Shown in pieces: positions 45,935-48,336 of a stretch of 64,000 nucleotides of DNA; the first letter of the stretch is position 1, and every line of letters starts with the position of its first letter. The notes beneath the pieces were generated by a model. That model did no database searches. It worked only from the letters and a program-made list of their open reading frames with translations, and was not told the origin of the DNA. Made by a program: the position numbers and the translations under genes. This DNA comes from a virus: IMG/VR virus record IMGVR_UViG_3300027648_000001, positions 1 to 64,000 of that record; one strand, written 5' to 3'.

Positions 45935-45963
45935 TTGCAGTTGATTATCTCTCATGGTACAAA
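45935..45963 (+). promoter_or_regulatory. promoter (CCGCTTGCAG motif) for the Y-RNA-like array and rsr
   Basis: TTGCAG-N17-TGgTACAAA (extended -10). Confidence 0.5.
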
Positions 45964-45994
45964 GTTGTTCGGCTCCACTAGGCGTGTATGCCAA

Positions 45995-46053
45995 GGGTCG
46001 GATGGATTGGGTTACCCCTACATAGGACAAATACCCAGTCCGACTTTTTATCT
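45995..46053 (+). ncRNA. Y-RNA-like unit A (minimal stem-loop)
   Basis: GGGTCGGA-tggatt-GGGT...ACCC-ag-TCCGAC-TTTTTATCT. GTCGGA/TCCGAC and GGGT/ACCC pair. Confidence 0.5.
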
Positions 46054-46072
46054 TTGGCGACGATTTTAGCGT

Positions 46073-46199
46073 GGGTCGGAAGAGAATGGTTACCTCGGAG
46101 CCTCCAGCACGGGTTCGATTCCCGTACTCGCTTCGGCGAGTTAGTTCAGTGGCAGAACAGAGGCATGGCGAAAGCCTTTCCGTTCTCGATCTTTTATCT
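46073..46199 (+). ncRNA. Y-RNA-like unit B with permuted tRNA-like module (YrlA-like)
   Basis: GGGTCGGA-N7-GGTTACC, then T arm ACGGG-TTCGATT-CCCGT, hairpin ACTCGC-TTCG-GCGAGT, D arm GTTC-AGTGGCA-GAAC, GCCTC/GAGGC closing stem. Ends CTTTTATCT. Confidence 0.65.
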
Positions 46200-46219
46200 A
46201 CGCGTTTATTTTATTGAGC

Positions 46220-46341
46220 GGGTCGGCTTGAATTAGGTTACCTCTTGTAAAGGTCCAGACCGGTTCGACTCCGGAAAGTTCCACTTCGGTGGGACTTTAG
46301 TGTAACGGCAGCACGGAAAACCCTAGTTCTACTTTTTATCT
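46220..46341 (+). ncRNA. Y-RNA-like unit C with permuted tRNA-like module (YrlA-like)
   Basis: GGGTCGGC-N8-GGTTACC, T arm CCGG-TTCGACT-CCGG, 7-bp hairpin GTTCCAC-TTCG-GTGGGAC, D-like GTG-TAACGGCAG-CAC. Ends CTTTTTATCT. Confidence 0.6.
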
Positions 46342-46358
46342 GCTCAATTTTTTCGGAC

Positions 46359-46511
46359 GGGTCGGAGTTGGATGGTTATCTCGCCACAGCAAGGCAGGAC
46401 GCTCTACTGCGTAGCGTAATACGTAGGGCCTGGTTGTCGCCTTAGACAGCAAGTGGGTTGCGAGAAGCGCCTGCGGCCGAGAAATCGGTTATCCATCTGA
46501 CAATTTTATCT
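46359..46511 (+). ncRNA. Y-RNA-like unit D
   Basis: GGGTCGGAGTTGGATGGTTATC pairs with ATCCATCTGAC near the 3' end (GTCGGA/TCTGAC and TGGAT/ATCCA with a 2-nt bulge). About 110-nt insert. Ends ATTTTATCT. Confidence 0.55.
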
Positions 46512-46527
46512 GTCCACTTAATTTGAC

Positions 46528-46609
46528 GGGTCGGATGTGCTGGATTATCGTTCAACTCGATGACTCCTGGAAACAGGAGACAGGCAAATTCCAGTACAAA
46601 CTTTTATCC
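46528..46609 (+). ncRNA. Y-RNA-like unit E
   Basis: GGGTCGGA-N6-GGATTATC, internal hairpin CTCCTG-GAAA-CAGGAG, CTGGA/TCCAG pairing. Ends CTTTTATCC. Confidence 0.45.
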
Positions 46610-46677
46610 GTCATTATTAAACCTACCGGCTCGGTCCCCATTATAAGTTGGCATTTTCCATCACGGGAGGAACTACA

Positions 46678-48336
46678 ATGGGCTATCTAAAGTCGCAGGT
46701 CCGCAGTATGTCGAACCCGCCACAAACAGAGCCTCTTGACGAGAAGCAAGTCAAGAACTCTGCGGGCGGATATTCGTACGCGGTGACGGACTGGGTCCGC
46801 TTGGACCGTTTCCTGATTCTTGGAAGCGAAGGCGGATCTTATTACGCCACTGAACAAAAACTAACCAAGGCCAACTCTGACGCCGCGCTCCGTTGCATCA
46901 AGGAAGACGGCGTGCGCGTCGTAAATCGCGTGATCGAAATCAGCCAGGCTGGACGAGCGCCAAAGAACGATCCGGCACTGTTCGTCCTAGCACTGTGCGC
47001 GGCTGACAAGAATGAGGTTGTTCGTGCGGCTGCGTTGCAGGCGCTTCCAAAGGTCGCGCGTATCGGTACCCACCTGTTCCACTTCGCAGAATACGTAAAT
47101 GGTCTGCGCGGTTGGGGTCGTGGGCTGCGTAAGGCAGTCGCTAACTGGTACTTGGATAAGGACTTAAGGGAACTCCAGAACCAGCTAGTGAAGTACCAAC
47201 AGCGCGACGGCTGGGGACATAGCGACTTACTGCGCCTATCACACCCACGTCCCATTCATAACGAGGATGTGGACGCTGCTTTTCGGTGGGCACTTGGAGC
47301 ACCCACAACTGGACGGCGTAAGGTTGAGAAGTTTCCAAAGGGCCACAAAGACGCCGTAAAGACGTTCGGGTATCCGGAAACCAGAGGATATCCTTCATTG
47401 ATCGCGGCGTTCGAGGAAGCCAAGAAGGCGGACACTAAGCGGGTGCTCGCGTTGATCCGCGAACACGGTATGACGCGGGAAATGGTCCCAACTGAGACGC
47501 TAACCAAGCCCCAAGTGTGGGAGGCATTGCTGGAAAAGATGCCCATGACGGCCATGATCCGCAACCTGGCCAACATGACACGCGTGGGCTTGCTTGCGCC
47601 AATGAGTGAAGCATCGAAGACGATTGCTTCCCGCTTGCAGGATCAGGATGCGCTCCGCAAGGCCCGCGTTCACCCTGTACAGGCGCTCATTGCGCTTTTG
47701 ACTTACAGCGCCGGTCACGGAGCACGCAGTCGCGGCGAAGGATGGACTCCTGTTCAGAAGGTTGTAGATGCTTTGGACCAGGCGTTCTATCTAAGCTTCG
47801 GAAACGTGGAGCCAACCGGCAAGCGGTGGTATCTGGGCGTGGACATTTCAGGTTCAATGGGCTGCGGAGAAATTGCCGGATGTCCTGGCCTGACTCCGCG
47901 CATCGGTGCCGCTGCAATGTCCATGGTTACGGCACGAGTGGAAGGGGATTACCTAATAAAGGGATTCTCTCACCAGTTGGTCGATCTGAGAATTTCTCCG
48001 CGCCAGCGTTTGGACGACGTGGTGAAAATCATGAATCAGCCCGATTTCGGTGGAACTGACTGCGCTTTGCCGATCCTAGATGCCCAGAAAATGAAGACCA
48101 AGTTCGACGTTTTCTGTATCATCACGGACGGCGAAACTTGGGCCGGTGAAACGCACACAATGAAGGCTTTGCGGGATTACCGGAAGGCATTCAGTCCGGC
48201 CGCTAAGTTGATTTGCGTGAACATGGTTTCCAACTCAATAACGGTAGGCGATCCGGACGACGCAGGAGTACTCAATTGTATAGGTTTTGATACTTCTACT
48301 CCTAGTATAATGAGCCAGTTCGTCACTGGGGACTAG
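46678..48336 (+). CDS. rsr: Ro60-related protein (TROVE domain + C-terminal vWA/MIDAS)
   Basis: NSAGGYSYAVTDWVRLDRFLILGSEGGSYYATEQKLT and HSDLLRLSHPRP are TROVE/Ro60 hallmarks. C-terminal MIDAS VDISGSM. Start moved to the ATG 7 nt after GGGAGG. Confidence 0.9.
   Translation: MGYLKSQVRSMSNPPQTEPLDEKQVKNSAGGYSYAVTDWVRLDRFLILGSEGGSYYATEQKLTKANSDAALRCIKEDGVRVVNRVIEISQAGRAPKNDPALFVLALCAADKNEVVRAAALQALPKVARIGTHLFHFAEYVNGLRGWGRGLRKAVANWYLDKDLRELQNQLVKYQQRDGWGHSDLLRLSHPRPIHNEDVDAAFRWALGAPTTGRRKVEKFPKGHKDAVKTFGYPETRGYPSLIAAFEEAKKADTKRVLALIREHGMTREMVPTETLTKPQVWEALLEKMPMTAMIRNLANMTRVGLLAPMSEASKTIASRLQDQDALRKARVHPVQALIALLTYSAGHGARSRGEGWTPVQKVVDALDQAFYLSFGNVEPTGKRWYLGVDISGSMGCGEIAGCPGLTPRIGAAAMSMVTARVEGDYLIKGFSHQLVDLRISPRQRLDDVVKIMNQPDFGGTDCALPILDAQKMKTKFDVFCIITDGETWAGETHTMKALRDYRKAFSPAAKLICVNMVSNSITVGDPDDAGVLNCIGFDTSTPSIMSQFVTGD

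What the first reader, a model, noticed from the sequence alone, without database searches (positions are those of the whole stretch)
45935..48336. Phage-encoded Ro60 (Rsr) preceded by five tandem Y-RNA-like units
46678..48336 is a clear TROVE + vWA Ro60 orthologue. Between its promoter (45935-45963) and its SD lie five units beginning at 45995, 46073, 46220, 46359 and 46528. Each opens with GGGTCGG(A/C)-N6-8-GG(G/A)TTA(C/T)C and closes with (A/C)TTTT(T)ATC(T/C). In units A and D the 5' GTCGGA pairs with a 3' TCCGAC or TCTGAC to form a bulged stem. The 5' motif resembles the Ro-binding end of vertebrate Y RNAs (GGCUGGUCCGA...GUUAUC, quoted from memory). Bacterial rsr loci are known to carry one or two adjacent Y RNAs (YrlA/YrlB), and some phages are reported to have them. 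An array of five divergent copies under one promoter looks unusual.
Basis: partly seen in the sequence, partly recalled or inferred. Interest (0 to 1): 0.8.

Follow-up and report, generated by a model that had tools for sequence, protein, structure and literature searches.

The report
Phage Ro60 gene with five Y RNAs
An uncultivated phage carries a Ro60 gene preceded by five different small structured RNAs that all end in the classic Ro60-docking stem; this is a real but expected kind of locus, notable mainly for how many partner RNAs it has.

Summary
Five units on the + strand (refined to 45990-46058, 46069-46203, 46214-46347, 46355-46515 and 46524-46613) lie between a conserved promoter-like site and a TROVE+vWA Ro60 gene (46678-48336). 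The window is from a phage with a 33-tRNA island. Each unit closes with the same three-part stem. First comes a unit-specific 4-6 bp helix. Next is the conserved helix GGGU/AUCY with a bulged C and G.U pairs, which matches the metazoan Ro-binding helix GGUC-C-GA/UU-GACU. Last is a unit-specific 8-9 bp helix followed by UUAYC. Comparison with units from 13 related loci shows covariation in all three helices. The interiors differ. A is a plain loop. B and C are permuted tRNA-like (YrlA-type) domains of two subtypes. D is a ~110-nt multi-helix module. E has a T-arm-like hairpin. Rfam does not call any unit at gathering score, but it also misses a close relative of the published mycobacteriophage YrlA. 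Arrays of 3-7 such units occur in many related phage contigs, in bacterial genome assemblies from metagenomes, and unannotated in isolated Streptomyces, Gordonia and Mycobacterium phages. So five units is not exceptional. Verdict: a new member of the known Ro60/Y-RNA system. RNA expression and Ro60 binding remain untested.

The parts
45935..45963 (+). Promoter-like site: -35 TTGCAG (45935-45940), 17-nt spacer, extended -10 TGgTACAAA (45955-45963)
   Evidence: Read directly from the sequence. The blocks CCGCTTGC and TGnTACAAA are conserved at the same place, just after the tRNA, in relative L098. The site was not called by the simple sigma-70 scan. Promoter function is inferred.
45990..46058 (+). 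Y RNA unit A (69 nt): closing stem GCCAA-GGGU / AUCU-UUGGC, bulged C, helix 2 GGAUUGGGU/ACCCAGUCC, 20-nt loop
   Evidence: Motifs. Fold -27.3 kcal/mol, z = -3.96. Matches the mini-Y covariance model at 38 bits, though unit A was among its training sequences. Flank pairing.
46069..46203 (+). Y RNA unit B (135 nt): YrlA-type, with a permuted tRNA-like domain (T arm CGGG-UUCGAUU-CCCG, closed acceptor-like hairpin with a UUCG loop, D arm GUUC-AGUGGCA-GAAC) and an extra GAAA hairpin
   Evidence: Rfam YrlA 41.6 bits, E = 1.3e-7, below the gathering score of 69. Fold, (z = -2.57). Alignment with other phage tRNA-like units shows compensatory changes in the T, acceptor-like and D arms.
46214..46347 (+). 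Y RNA unit C (134 nt): second tRNA-like subtype (T arm CCGG-UUCGACU-CCGG, 10-bp closed acceptor-like hairpin, D arm GUGU-AACGGCA-GCAC)
   Evidence: 90% identical to L098 unit 2 and 75% to L107 unit 1. The RNAalifold consensus has 14 of 28 pairs with compensatory changes. Fold, (z = -2.23).
46355..46515 (+). Y RNA unit D (161 nt): same closing stem, helix 2 GUUGGAUGG/CCAUCUGAC, and a ~110-nt multi-helix module with no known counterpart
   Evidence: 78% identical to L098 unit 3. The consensus fold recovers helix 1, the bulged C and helix 2, with compensatory changes. Fold. No Rfam hit at E <= 10.
46524..46613 (+). Y RNA unit E (90 nt): T-arm-like hairpin AUCG-UUCAACU-CGAU plus a GAAA-tetraloop hairpin
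   Evidence: Fold -35.8 kcal/mol, z = -4.72. Matches the mini-Y model at 36.1 bits, though unit E was among its training sequences. Weak match to a nematode stem-bulge RNA family (RF01656, 23 bits, E = 0.045) through the GGUCGG...GGAUUAUC end.
46665..46671 (+). Shine-Dalgarno sequence GGGAGGA of the Ro60 gene
   Evidence: Read from the sequence. GGAGGA is conserved in L098.
46678..48336 (+). Ro60 (Rsr) gene, 552 aa, TROVE ring plus vWA domain with MIDAS motif DiSgSM; stop codon TAG
   Evidence: Pfam TROVE and vWA_Ro60. PDB matches: 2NVO at 2.4e-122, 9NEN at 2.1e-121, 1YVP at 5e-120. Stop codon.

Best explanation
This is a Y-RNA operon of a phage. One promoter (about 45935-45963) is inferred to drive a transcript that holds five Y RNA paralogues followed by the Ro60 gene. 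Each RNA folds on its own into a stem closed by its own 5' and 3' ends. That stem has three parts: a unit-specific 4-6 bp helix; the conserved helix 5' GGGU-C-GGA / 3' UUU-AUCY with a bulged C, which is the docking site for the outer face of the Ro60 ring; and a unit-specific 8-9 bp helix followed by UUAYC. The 7-10 nt AU-rich linkers between units are the likely cutting sites that release the individual RNAs (inferred). By analogy with characterised Y RNAs, the shared stem docks every RNA on phage Ro60. The five different inner modules (plain loop, two tRNA mimics, a large multi-helix module, a T-arm-like module) would tether or gate the ring towards different partners, such as host PNPase or tRNA-handling enzymes. 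That would redirect RNA surveillance or decay during infection. Shown here: the anatomy, the covariation, the orthology of units C and D, and the Ro60 identity. Inferred: transcription as one unit, processing, Ro60 binding, and the partners.
For: Motif array: 5 matches against 0.01 expected. Ro60 identity. Phage context (terminase, portal, major head protein, 33 tRNAs).

Helix 1 covaries across lineages: GGGU/AUCU in the window, GGGU/ACUC in L098, GGGC/GUCU in L003, GAGC/GUUC in L099/L109/L114, GGGC/GCCC in L019, AGGC/GUCU in LinStu. On natural sequences RNAalifold gives pair 2 as GC12/AU10/GU2 and pair 4 as CG19/UA5.

In 51 units, helices 1 and 2 are 94.8% paired. The covariation score is 0.854 against 0.309 in shuffles, reached by 0 of 500 shuffles.

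Helix 2 forms 8 of 8 pairs in 33 of 58 units, against 2.2% of mismatched unit combinations. All five window units score 8 of 8.

The flanking closing helix has at least 4 contiguous pairs in 41 of 58 units, against 5.9% of mismatched combinations. All five window units reach that.

With flanks included, every unit's minimum-energy fold shows the common architecture.

Unit B matches Rfam YrlA at E = 1.3e-7. The tRNA-like arms of B and C carry compensatory changes.

Units C and D are orthologous and adjacent in L098, whose Ro60 is 69% identical.

Published precedents: YrlA and YrlB are cut from one precursor upstream of rsr in M. smegmatis, and YrlA-like RNAs were found in 22 phages (PMC4201824). 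Thermus phage phiLo Yrl1 and Yrl2 bind phage Ro60 and PNPase (PMC12135203).
Against: There are no expression data, so discrete RNAs, their ends and Ro60 binding are untested. No Rfam family reaches its gathering score, and the vertebrate Y_RNA model finds nothing at E <= 10. The published motif GNCGAAN0-1G is matched only as GUCGGA(N)G. The 3' strands used in the covariation counts were located by me, using locus-specific motifs and complementarity, so the counts lean towards the structure; the permutation controls and the de novo k-mer recovery offset this only in part. Units A, B and E have no detectable orthologue. The promoter is weak against the sigma-70 consensus.
Confidence: 0.85

Rival explanations
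1. The five elements are not separate stable RNAs. They are repeated Ro60-binding sites in a long 5' leader, through which Ro60 autoregulates its own mRNA's stability or translation.
For: No terminator lies between the array and the gene. The last unit ends 64 nt before the start codon. All units carry the same presumed Ro60 site.
Against: In relatives the arrays lie downstream of Ro60 (L002, L003, L099) or are interleaved with tRNA genes (Sixama, Blueeyedbeauty), where they cannot act as a leader. Conserved, elaborate and distinct inner modules, including tRNA mimics, are not needed for a binding site. In M. smegmatis, similarly placed RNAs are processed into stable Rsr-bound species. Autoregulation could still coexist with processing.
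Confidence: 0.08
2. Each unit is an independent small gene, with its own start in the AU-rich spacer. It ends at the stem plus U-tract, which acts as an intrinsic terminator.
For: Without flanks, the minimum-energy folds of A and D use that register and leave a 3' U-tract. The spacers contain A/T-rich hexamers 5-12 nt before each GGG.
Against: With the pairing flanks included, all five units fold with UUUUAUCY inside the stem. Flank pairing is unit-specific and family-wide. Most relatives have CUUGUCU or CACGCCC instead of a U-tract. No sigma-70-like promoter was called in the three spacers upstream of unit D; the one + strand site called (-35 TTGACG at 46523 in the D-E spacer) has its -10 inside unit E. 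This rival concerns how the RNAs are made, not what they are.
Confidence: 0.06
3. The units are decayed tRNA genes or generic dispersed repeats at the edge of the phage tRNA island, with no link to Ro60.
For: B, C and E contain T-loop-like hairpins. The array directly follows 33 tRNA genes.
Against: The order T arm, closed acceptor hairpin, D arm is circularly permuted, as in YrlA, and is enclosed in a long stem. The shared motif occurs nowhere else in the 64 kb. In about 80 Ro60 loci the motif is strongly biased to the Ro60 strand: 87 structural hits against 9 on the opposite strand. Covariation shows selection on the stems.
Confidence: 0.01

Closest known systems
YrlA/YrlB of Mycobacterium smegmatis and YrlA-like RNAs of Bxz1-type mycobacteriophages (Chen et al. 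2014, PMC4201824; Rfam RF02553)
   Same: The RNAs lie upstream of rsr on the same strand. There are several Y RNAs, and in M. smegmatis they come from one precursor. One RNA has a permuted tRNA-like domain (T arm, closed acceptor stem, D arm). The 5' strand is GNCGAA-like and is followed by GGUUAYC. LinStu and ET08 in fact have three such units, and the middle one is the tRNA mimic.
   Different: The window has five units, not two or three. The 5' strand is GUCGGA and the 3' strand is UUUUAUCY, rather than CGAA with CAUGUCU. There are two tRNA-like subtypes plus modules D and E, which have no counterpart. Ro60 is only about 42% identical. Both the window unit (41.6 bits) and the LinStu unit (36.1 bits) fall below the Rfam gathering score of 69.
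Thermus phage phiLo Yrl1/Yrl2 with phage Ro60 (PMC12135203)
   Same: A phage-encoded Ro60 with Y-like RNAs directly upstream. There, binding to Ro60 and ternary complexes with host PNPase were shown in vitro. This is the best experimental precedent for the mechanism proposed here.
   Different: Two RNAs rather than five. They were identified by a CGAA motif. No tRNA-like module was reported in what I read. I did not compare the sequences.
Deinococcus radiodurans Yrn1/Yrn2 and the Ro60/Y RNA/PNPase complex (RYPER)
   Same: Several small RNAs (four, a-d) are encoded upstream of rsr. Both strands of the metazoan-type Ro-binding helix are retained. The Y RNA tethers Ro60 to PNPase.
   Different: That is a bacterial chromosomal, stress-induced locus. 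The tRNA-like part has a different orientation.
Vertebrate Y RNAs and nematode stem-bulge RNAs
   Same: The lower stem has a single bulged C: GGUC-C-GA/UU-GACU against GGGY-C-GRA/UU-RYYY here. A UUAUC motif follows the upper stem, and the loop is variable. The Rfam consensus of the stem-bulge RNA family RF01656 reads GGUCCGG...GGGUUAUC...CUUGACC and aligns to unit E.
   Different: No hit to Rfam Y_RNA. The RF01656 hit scores 23 bits, below its gathering score of 38. There is no RNA polymerase III context and no 3' oligo-U tail. In animals the UUAUC motif is tied to DNA replication. The review cited considers bacterial Y RNAs not homologous to vertebrate ones.
Unannotated Y-like arrays found here in isolated phages (Streptomyces phage Blueeyedbeauty, Gordonia phage Sixama)
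   Same: They have the same 5' motif (GGGTCGGA...GGTTATC in Blueeyedbeauty), four to five units per locus, both tRNA-like subtypes, and linkage to Ro60 and a tRNA island.
   Different: There the units alternate with genuine tRNA genes instead of forming an uninterrupted array. Ro60 is 40-43% identical. Nothing is annotated or published for them as far as I could find.

Membership tests
Ro60 / Rsr protein | TROVE (HEAT-repeat ring) domain | tested here: met
   Pfam PF05731, E = 4.6e-51, residues 25-339
Ro60 / Rsr protein | C-terminal vWA domain with a MIDAS motif (DxSxS) | tested here: met
   Pfam PF25045, E = 5.6e-51. DiSgSM aligns with the DvSgSM of D. radiodurans Rsr.
Ro60 / Rsr protein | Full-length similarity to solved Ro60/Rsr structures | tested here: met
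   2NVO 2.4e-122, 9NEN 2.1e-121, 1YVP 5e-120, each covering nearly the whole protein
Y RNA (non-coding RNA partner of Ro60) | Encoded next to the Ro60 gene on the same strand (the prokaryotic rule: within 4 kb) | tested here: met
   All five units lie 65-690 nt upstream on the + strand
Y RNA (non-coding RNA partner of Ro60) | 5' and 3' ends pair into a stem that holds a conserved helix with a single bulged C (the Ro60 site) | tested here: met
   GGGU-C-GGA/UUU-AUCY in all five units. Covariation at pairs 2 and 4 across lineages. Closing flanks pair. Folds.
Y RNA (non-coding RNA partner of Ro60) | Variable internal loop or effector module above the stem | tested here: met
   Five different modules
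Y RNA (non-coding RNA partner of Ro60) | Match to Rfam Y_RNA (RF00019) | tested here: not met
   No match even at E <= 10. That model is built from animal sequences.
Y RNA (non-coding RNA partner of Ro60) | Accumulates as a discrete small RNA that is bound by, and depends on, Ro60 | not testable with these tools
   Needs RNA-seq or Northern blots and Ro60 immunoprecipitation
YrlA (Rfam RF02553) | Score at or above the Rfam gathering score (69 bits) | tested here: not met
   Unit B scores 41.6 bits (E = 1.3e-7) and unit C is not found. The LinStu unit, from a locus 97.6% identical to ET08 (the published phage example), scores only 36.1 bits. The cut-off therefore does not separate phage YrlA-like RNAs from non-members.
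YrlA (Rfam RF02553) | Permuted tRNA-like domain: T arm, closed acceptor-like stem, D arm | tested here: met
   Units B and C: T loops UUCGAUU and UUCGACU, hairpins with UUCG loops, D loops containing GG. Compensatory changes in alignments.
YrlA (Rfam RF02553) | GNCGAAN0-1G motif in the 5' strand | tested here: not met
   The window has GUCGGA(N)G, i.e. A to G at the fifth position, which keeps pairing with U as G.U. Relatives L003, L099 and L109 have GCCGAAG.
YrlA (Rfam RF02553) | Substrate of tRNA enzymes (TruB, DusA, RNase P, CCA-adding enzyme) | not testable with these tools
   Biochemical property reported for Salmonella and M. smegmatis YrlA
Nematode stem-bulge RNA (RF01656) | Score at or above the gathering score (38 bits) | tested here: not met
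   Unit E scores 23 bits, E = 0.045. The resemblance is limited to the stem and UUAUC.

The most novel reading that the evidence does not exclude
Ro60-encoding phages, and some bacteria, may carry whole sets of four to seven Y RNA adaptors embedded in their tRNA islands. One shared docking stem would be combined with interchangeable effector modules, including at least two module classes (units D and E) with no known counterpart, so that a single Ro60 ring could be directed to several host RNA machines during infection. In addition, the bulged-C helix and the UUAYC motif sit at the same position as in vertebrate Y RNAs and nematode stem-bulge RNAs. This would mean that prokaryotic, phage and animal Y RNAs share ancestry, contrary to the view that they are not homologous, and that UUAUC belongs to the ancestral Ro60 ribonucleoprotein core rather than being a replication-specific motif.
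Probability: 0.3. Interest if true: 0.7.

Novelty: new member of a known kind. Interest (0 to 1): 0.5.

Why it matters
The roles of bacterial and phage Y RNAs are still poorly understood, and only one effector, PNPase, has been demonstrated. A compact operon with five Y RNAs offers a natural experiment: the RNAs share one docking stem and differ only in the inner module. Pulling down each RNA with Ro60 should show which partners each module recruits. The comparative result may be more useful than this single locus. Arrays of 3-7 such units are common next to Ro60 in uncultivated phages, in bacterial metagenome-assembled genomes, and in isolated Streptomyces, Gordonia and Mycobacterium phages. 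None is annotated as a Y RNA in the six isolated-phage records I inspected, and Rfam misses them at its cut-offs. Some are probably annotated as small proteins or even as tRNAs. An improved covariance model would correct many genome annotations. The constant linkage to phage tRNA islands suggests a role in tRNA or translation-related RNA quality control during infection.

Tried and rejected
- Rfam at gathering thresholds found only tRNAs. At E <= 10 there was no Y_RNA hit; the only relevant hits were a sub-threshold YrlA hit (unit B) and a weak stem-bulge RNA hit (unit E).
- Megablast of 45900-48400 against 50,697 phage records found nothing.
- An IMG/VR scan for GGGTCGG-N6-9-GGTTAYCTC gave 93 stretches, mostly chance. 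Only 5 lie next to a Ro60 gene, but one of these, L098, is the closest relative.
- A scan for a 14-mer from the core of unit D recovered only L098.
- The mini-Y covariance model R1 recovers units A and E only. It cannot span the long inserts of B, C and D. It finds nothing else in the window.
- A nested sixth unit inside D (GGCCGAGAAATCGGTTATC at 46474) is rejected. It is a GAAA-tetraloop hairpin, and the motif is absent from the L098 orthologue.
- A structural-detector hit at 42372-42438 is rejected. It lies in what reads as coding sequence (cysteine-pair motifs) and lacks UUAYC.
- I looked for RNA-repair genes (RtcB, ligases) next to the locus and found none.
- Read-through of the Ro60 TAG stop by the neighbouring CUA tRNA would add only 4 residues.
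- No host could be assigned. Structural proteins are at most 30% identical to those of any isolate, and bacterial genomes hold no Ro60 closer than 53%.
- The two main Y RNA reviews (PMC10870794, PMC6047535) and the supplement of Chen et al. 2014 were not available. My statement that arrays of five or more are undescribed therefore rests only on the searchable library.
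Full report
**Observation.** The region was read directly. The composite 5' motif GGGTCGG-N5-9-GRTTAYC occurs exactly five times in the 64 kb, at 45995, 46073, 46220, 46359 and 46528. All five are on the + strand, against 0.01 matches expected from dinucleotide-preserving shuffles. Each unit ends with TTTTATC(T/C), at 46046, 46192, 46334, 46504 and 46602.

The downstream ORF (ATG 46678, stop TAG at 48336) is preceded by GGGAGGA. 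It matches Pfam TROVE (4.6e-51) and vWA_Ro60 (5.6e-51). Over its full length it matches the solved structures of D. radiodurans Rsr (2.4e-122), RO60 entry 9NEN (2.1e-121) and Xenopus Ro60 (5e-120), with the MIDAS motif intact.

The window is phage DNA. It holds a large terminase subunit, a portal protein and a major head protein, and 33 tRNA genes between 34.6 and 45.9 kb. It is far from any isolate: structural proteins are at most 30% identical, and DNA around the locus has no megablast match.

**Relatives.** Ro60 proteins of 367 isolated phages are at most 45% identical. Scans of IMG/VR, JGI metagenomes and GTDB genomes gave about 90 loci with Ro60 38-69% identical. The closest is L098, a 14.3-kb viral contig with Ro60 69% identical. 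It is syntenic with the window. It has the same long-arm tRNA with a CUA anticodon and the same promoter-like blocks CCGCTTGC and TGnTACAAA. It then carries six units opening with GGGTCGG...GGTTAYC and closing with TTTTTACTC. Window unit C is 90% identical to L098 unit 2, and unit D is 78% identical to L098 unit 3. Units A, B and E have no detectable orthologue.

First, the 3' motif is not a tail. It is the 3' strand of the terminal helix: G1-G2-G3-U4 pairs with A-U-C-Y, C5 is bulged, and G6-G7-A8 faces UUU.
- Across lineages the two strands change together: GGGU/AUCU (window), GGGU/ACUC (L098), GGGU/AUCC with one unit GAGU/AUUC (L107), GGGC/GUCU (L002, L003), GAGC/GUUC (L099, L109, L114), GGGC/GCCC (L019, BearBQ) and AGGC/GUCU (LinStu).
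- The 3' motifs are recovered by a de novo k-mer count that ignores the 5' strand.
- On 24 natural short units, RNAalifold predicts this helix. Pair 2 is GC12/AU10/GU2 and pair 4 is CG19/UA5.

Second, two further unit-specific helices exist.
- The 8 nt just before UUAYC form 8 of 8 pairs with the 3' region of the same unit in 33 of 58 units. Only 2.2% of mismatched unit combinations do so. All five window units score 8 of 8.
- The 4-6 nt just outside the conserved motif also pair: GCCAA/UUGGC, GCGU/ACGC, UUGAGC/GCUCAA, GGAC/GUCC and UGAC/GUCA. At least 4 contiguous pairs occur in 41 of 58 units, against 5.9% of mismatched combinations.
- On an alignment of 51 trimmed units, helices 1 and 2 are 94.8% paired. 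The covariation score is 0.854 against 0.309 in shuffles, reached by 0 of 500 shuffles, and sliding the partner by one column halves the pairing. Because I located the 3' strands, these counts lean towards the structure. The permutation tests are the fairer control.

With the flanks included, the single-sequence minimum-energy fold of each window unit shows the common architecture. Z-scores are -3.96 (A), -2.57 (B), -2.23 (C) and -4.72 (E). In a fold of the whole array, units A, B, C and E each fold within their own boundaries, while D's closing stem differs slightly.

That register arises from a quasi-repeat in the 5' strand. For D, the alignment with L098 unit 3 recovers helix 1, the bulged C and a 9-bp helix 2 with compensatory changes.

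The refined units are A 45990-46058, B 46069-46203, C 46214-46347, D 46355-46515 and E 46524-46613. The linkers between them are 7-10 nt and AU-rich.

**What the stem resembles.** The Ro60 site of vertebrate Y RNAs is a conserved helix with a single bulged cytidine. [quoted passage not shown] The canonical form in the relatives is 5' GGGC-C-GAAG with 3' CUU-GUCU. From my memory of the human Y1 sequence, this differs from GGUC-C-GA/UU-GACU at only one base pair. The Rfam consensus of stem-bulge RNA family RF01656 (GGUCCGG...GGGUUAUC...CUUGACC) aligns to unit E at 23 bits. The published bacterial motif GNCGAAN0-1G is the same 5' strand. The window carries GUCGGA, an A-to-G change that keeps pairing with U.

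UUAYC is not an artefact of my search pattern. A detector that asks only for the three helices found 87 units on the Ro60 strand and 9 on the opposite strand. About two thirds of the 87 are followed by (G)UUAYC.

**Inner modules.**
- Unit B has a T arm (CGGG-UUCGAUU-CCCG), a closed acceptor-like hairpin with a UUCG loop and a D arm (GUUC-AGUGGCA-GAAC), in the permuted order that defines YrlA. It matches Rfam YrlA at 41.6 bits (E = 1.3e-7), below the gathering score of 69.
- That cut-off is not informative for phages. The tRNA-like unit of mycobacteriophage LinStu scores 36.1 bits, and its locus is 97.6% identical to that of ET08, the phage example shown by Chen et al. 2014. Aligned with nine other phage units, B shares the T, acceptor-like and D arms, with compensatory changes.
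- Unit C is a second tRNA-like subtype, with D arm UAGUGUAAYGGCAGCAC. It is shared with L098, L107, L109 and L111. In that alignment 14 of 28 predicted pairs show compensatory changes.
- Unit D carries a ~110-nt multi-helix module conserved only in L098, with no Rfam match.
- Unit E has a T-arm-like hairpin (AUCG-UUCAACU-CGAU) and a GAAA hairpin.
- Unit A has a plain 20-nt loop.

**How common are arrays?** A strict pattern counted the largest run of units per Ro60 locus. Among 79 loci, many of them truncated and a few duplicated, the counts were 0 units in 23 loci, 1 in 16, 2 in 20, 3 in 7, 4 in 5, 5 in 4, 6 in 3 and 7 in 1.
- Examples are L019 (7 units), L107 (6), L003, L099, L109 and L114 (5 each) and L002 (4).
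- Arrays lie upstream or downstream of Ro60.
- Bacterial assemblies have them too: two Trueperaceae contigs of 1.2 and 5.2 Mb (3 units each), a Verrucomicrobiota assembly (5) and a Brocadia assembly (3).
- Isolated phages carry them unannotated. LinStu and ET08 have 3 units, the third overlapping a predicted small protein. Gordonia phage BearBQ has 2. Gordonia phage Sixama has 4, alternating with tRNA genes. Streptomyces phage Blueeyedbeauty has 5 with the same GGGTCGGA...GGTTATC opening, one of which starts at the same coordinate as, and overlaps, an annotated tRNA-His.

Five units is therefore typical of the upper range of this clade, not exceptional.

**Literature.** Chen et al. 2014 found YrlA-like RNAs near Ro60 in 254 bacteria and 22 phages. 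They showed at least two Y RNAs in each characterised species, processing of YrlA and YrlB from one precursor in M. smegmatis, and four small RNAs upstream of rsr in D. radiodurans. Thermus phage phiLo has two Y-like RNAs upstream of its Ro60 that bind it and host PNPase. Three abundant RNAs upstream of an Rsr-like gene in a Listeria phage were suggested to be Y RNAs. [quoted passage not shown] I found no description of arrays of five or more, or of modules like D and E, in the searchable library.

**Mechanism.** The best-supported reading is a Y-RNA operon (confidence 0.85 that these are Ro60-partner RNAs; about 0.6 that all five accumulate as discrete species).
- Shown: the anatomy, the covariation, the conservation of units C and D, the Ro60 identity, and the lack of a terminator before the gene.
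- Inferred from the named precedents: transcription from the conserved promoter-like site, cutting in the AU-rich linkers, docking of the shared stem on the outer face of Ro60, and recruitment of different partners by the five modules.

No RNA-repair gene lies nearby. The constant linkage is instead with tRNA islands. This hints at a role in tRNA or translation-related RNA surveillance, but that is speculation.

**Verdict.** It is a new member of the known Ro60/Y-RNA system. The more interesting results are comparative. Multi-unit Y-RNA arrays are widespread and go unannotated. The docking stem and the UUAYC motif match those of animal Y RNAs more closely than the literature suggests.

Noticed in passing
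window 45812-45907 (+); L098 6933-7027: A 96-nt tRNA with a long variable arm whose anticodon loop, CCCUAAA, reads CUA (amber suppressor, with an unusual C33). Rfam scores it 58 bits, but ARAGORN missed it. The L098 orthologue has loop CUCUAAA (U33, CUA). TAG is still a normal stop for 8 of 33 long + strand ORFs, including Ro60, where read-through would add only 4 residues.
   Followed up: partly
L168 (Gordonia phage Sixama, MN484601) 5026-5670: Four unannotated Y-like units (starting at 5026, 5178, 5386 and 5596) alternate with the annotated tRNA-Arg, tRNA-Gln, tRNA-Ile and tRNA-Met genes downstream of the Ro gene. This suggests they are released from the same transcript by tRNA-processing enzymes.
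   Followed up: partly
L231 (Streptomyces phage Blueeyedbeauty, MH536814) 201-1620: Five unannotated Y-like units with the same GGGTCGGA...GGTTATC opening as the window, interleaved with tRNA genes upstream of Ro. The unit starting at 1438 is a tRNA-like subtype. It starts at the same coordinate as, and overlaps, the feature annotated as tRNA-His(gtg) at 1438-1510, which is probably a misannotation.
   Followed up: partly
L166 (LinStu) 2579-2916; L171 (ET08) 279-620: Bxz1-type mycobacteriophages have three Y-like units upstream of Ro, not only the published tRNA-like one. The third unit overlaps the predicted 57-aa 'hypothetical protein' gp230 (LinStu) / gp219 (ET08), which may not be a real gene.
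   Followed up: partly
L222, L223 (Trueperaceae), L224 (Verrucomicrobiota) 2210-2707, L221 (Brocadia): Bacterial metagenome-assembled genomes also carry arrays of 3-5 Y-like units upstream of rsr, so multi-unit arrays are not specific to phages.
   Followed up: no
L003 7475-7699: A permuted tmRNA (RF04321, 71 bits) lies about 750 nt downstream of that phage's five-unit Y array and before its tRNA island.
   Followed up: no
window 48338-48874 (+): An HNH endonuclease ORF (PHROG matches around 1e-19) starts 2 nt after the Ro60 stop codon. In L003, an ORF with cysteine-pair motifs (not searched against protein families) sits between Ro60 and the Y array, as if a mobile endonuclease had been inserted there.
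   Followed up: no
window 46631-46637; L098 about 8218-8224: A short block, TCGGTCC, in the Ro60 5' leader between unit E and the Shine-Dalgarno sequence is conserved with L098. It resembles the Ro-site 5' strand. Its function is unknown.
   Followed up: no
window 24644-34111 (+): A very long ORF of 3155 aa sits just upstream of the tRNA island. It was not examined. The three ORFs before it (15991-24643) have no PHROG match.
   Followed up: no
L229 = L002 contig (123,707 bp): The viral contig that carries a four-unit Y array downstream of Ro60 is also deposited as part of an Acidobacteria metagenome-assembled genome. This may hint at the host, or it may be a binning artefact.
   Followed up: no
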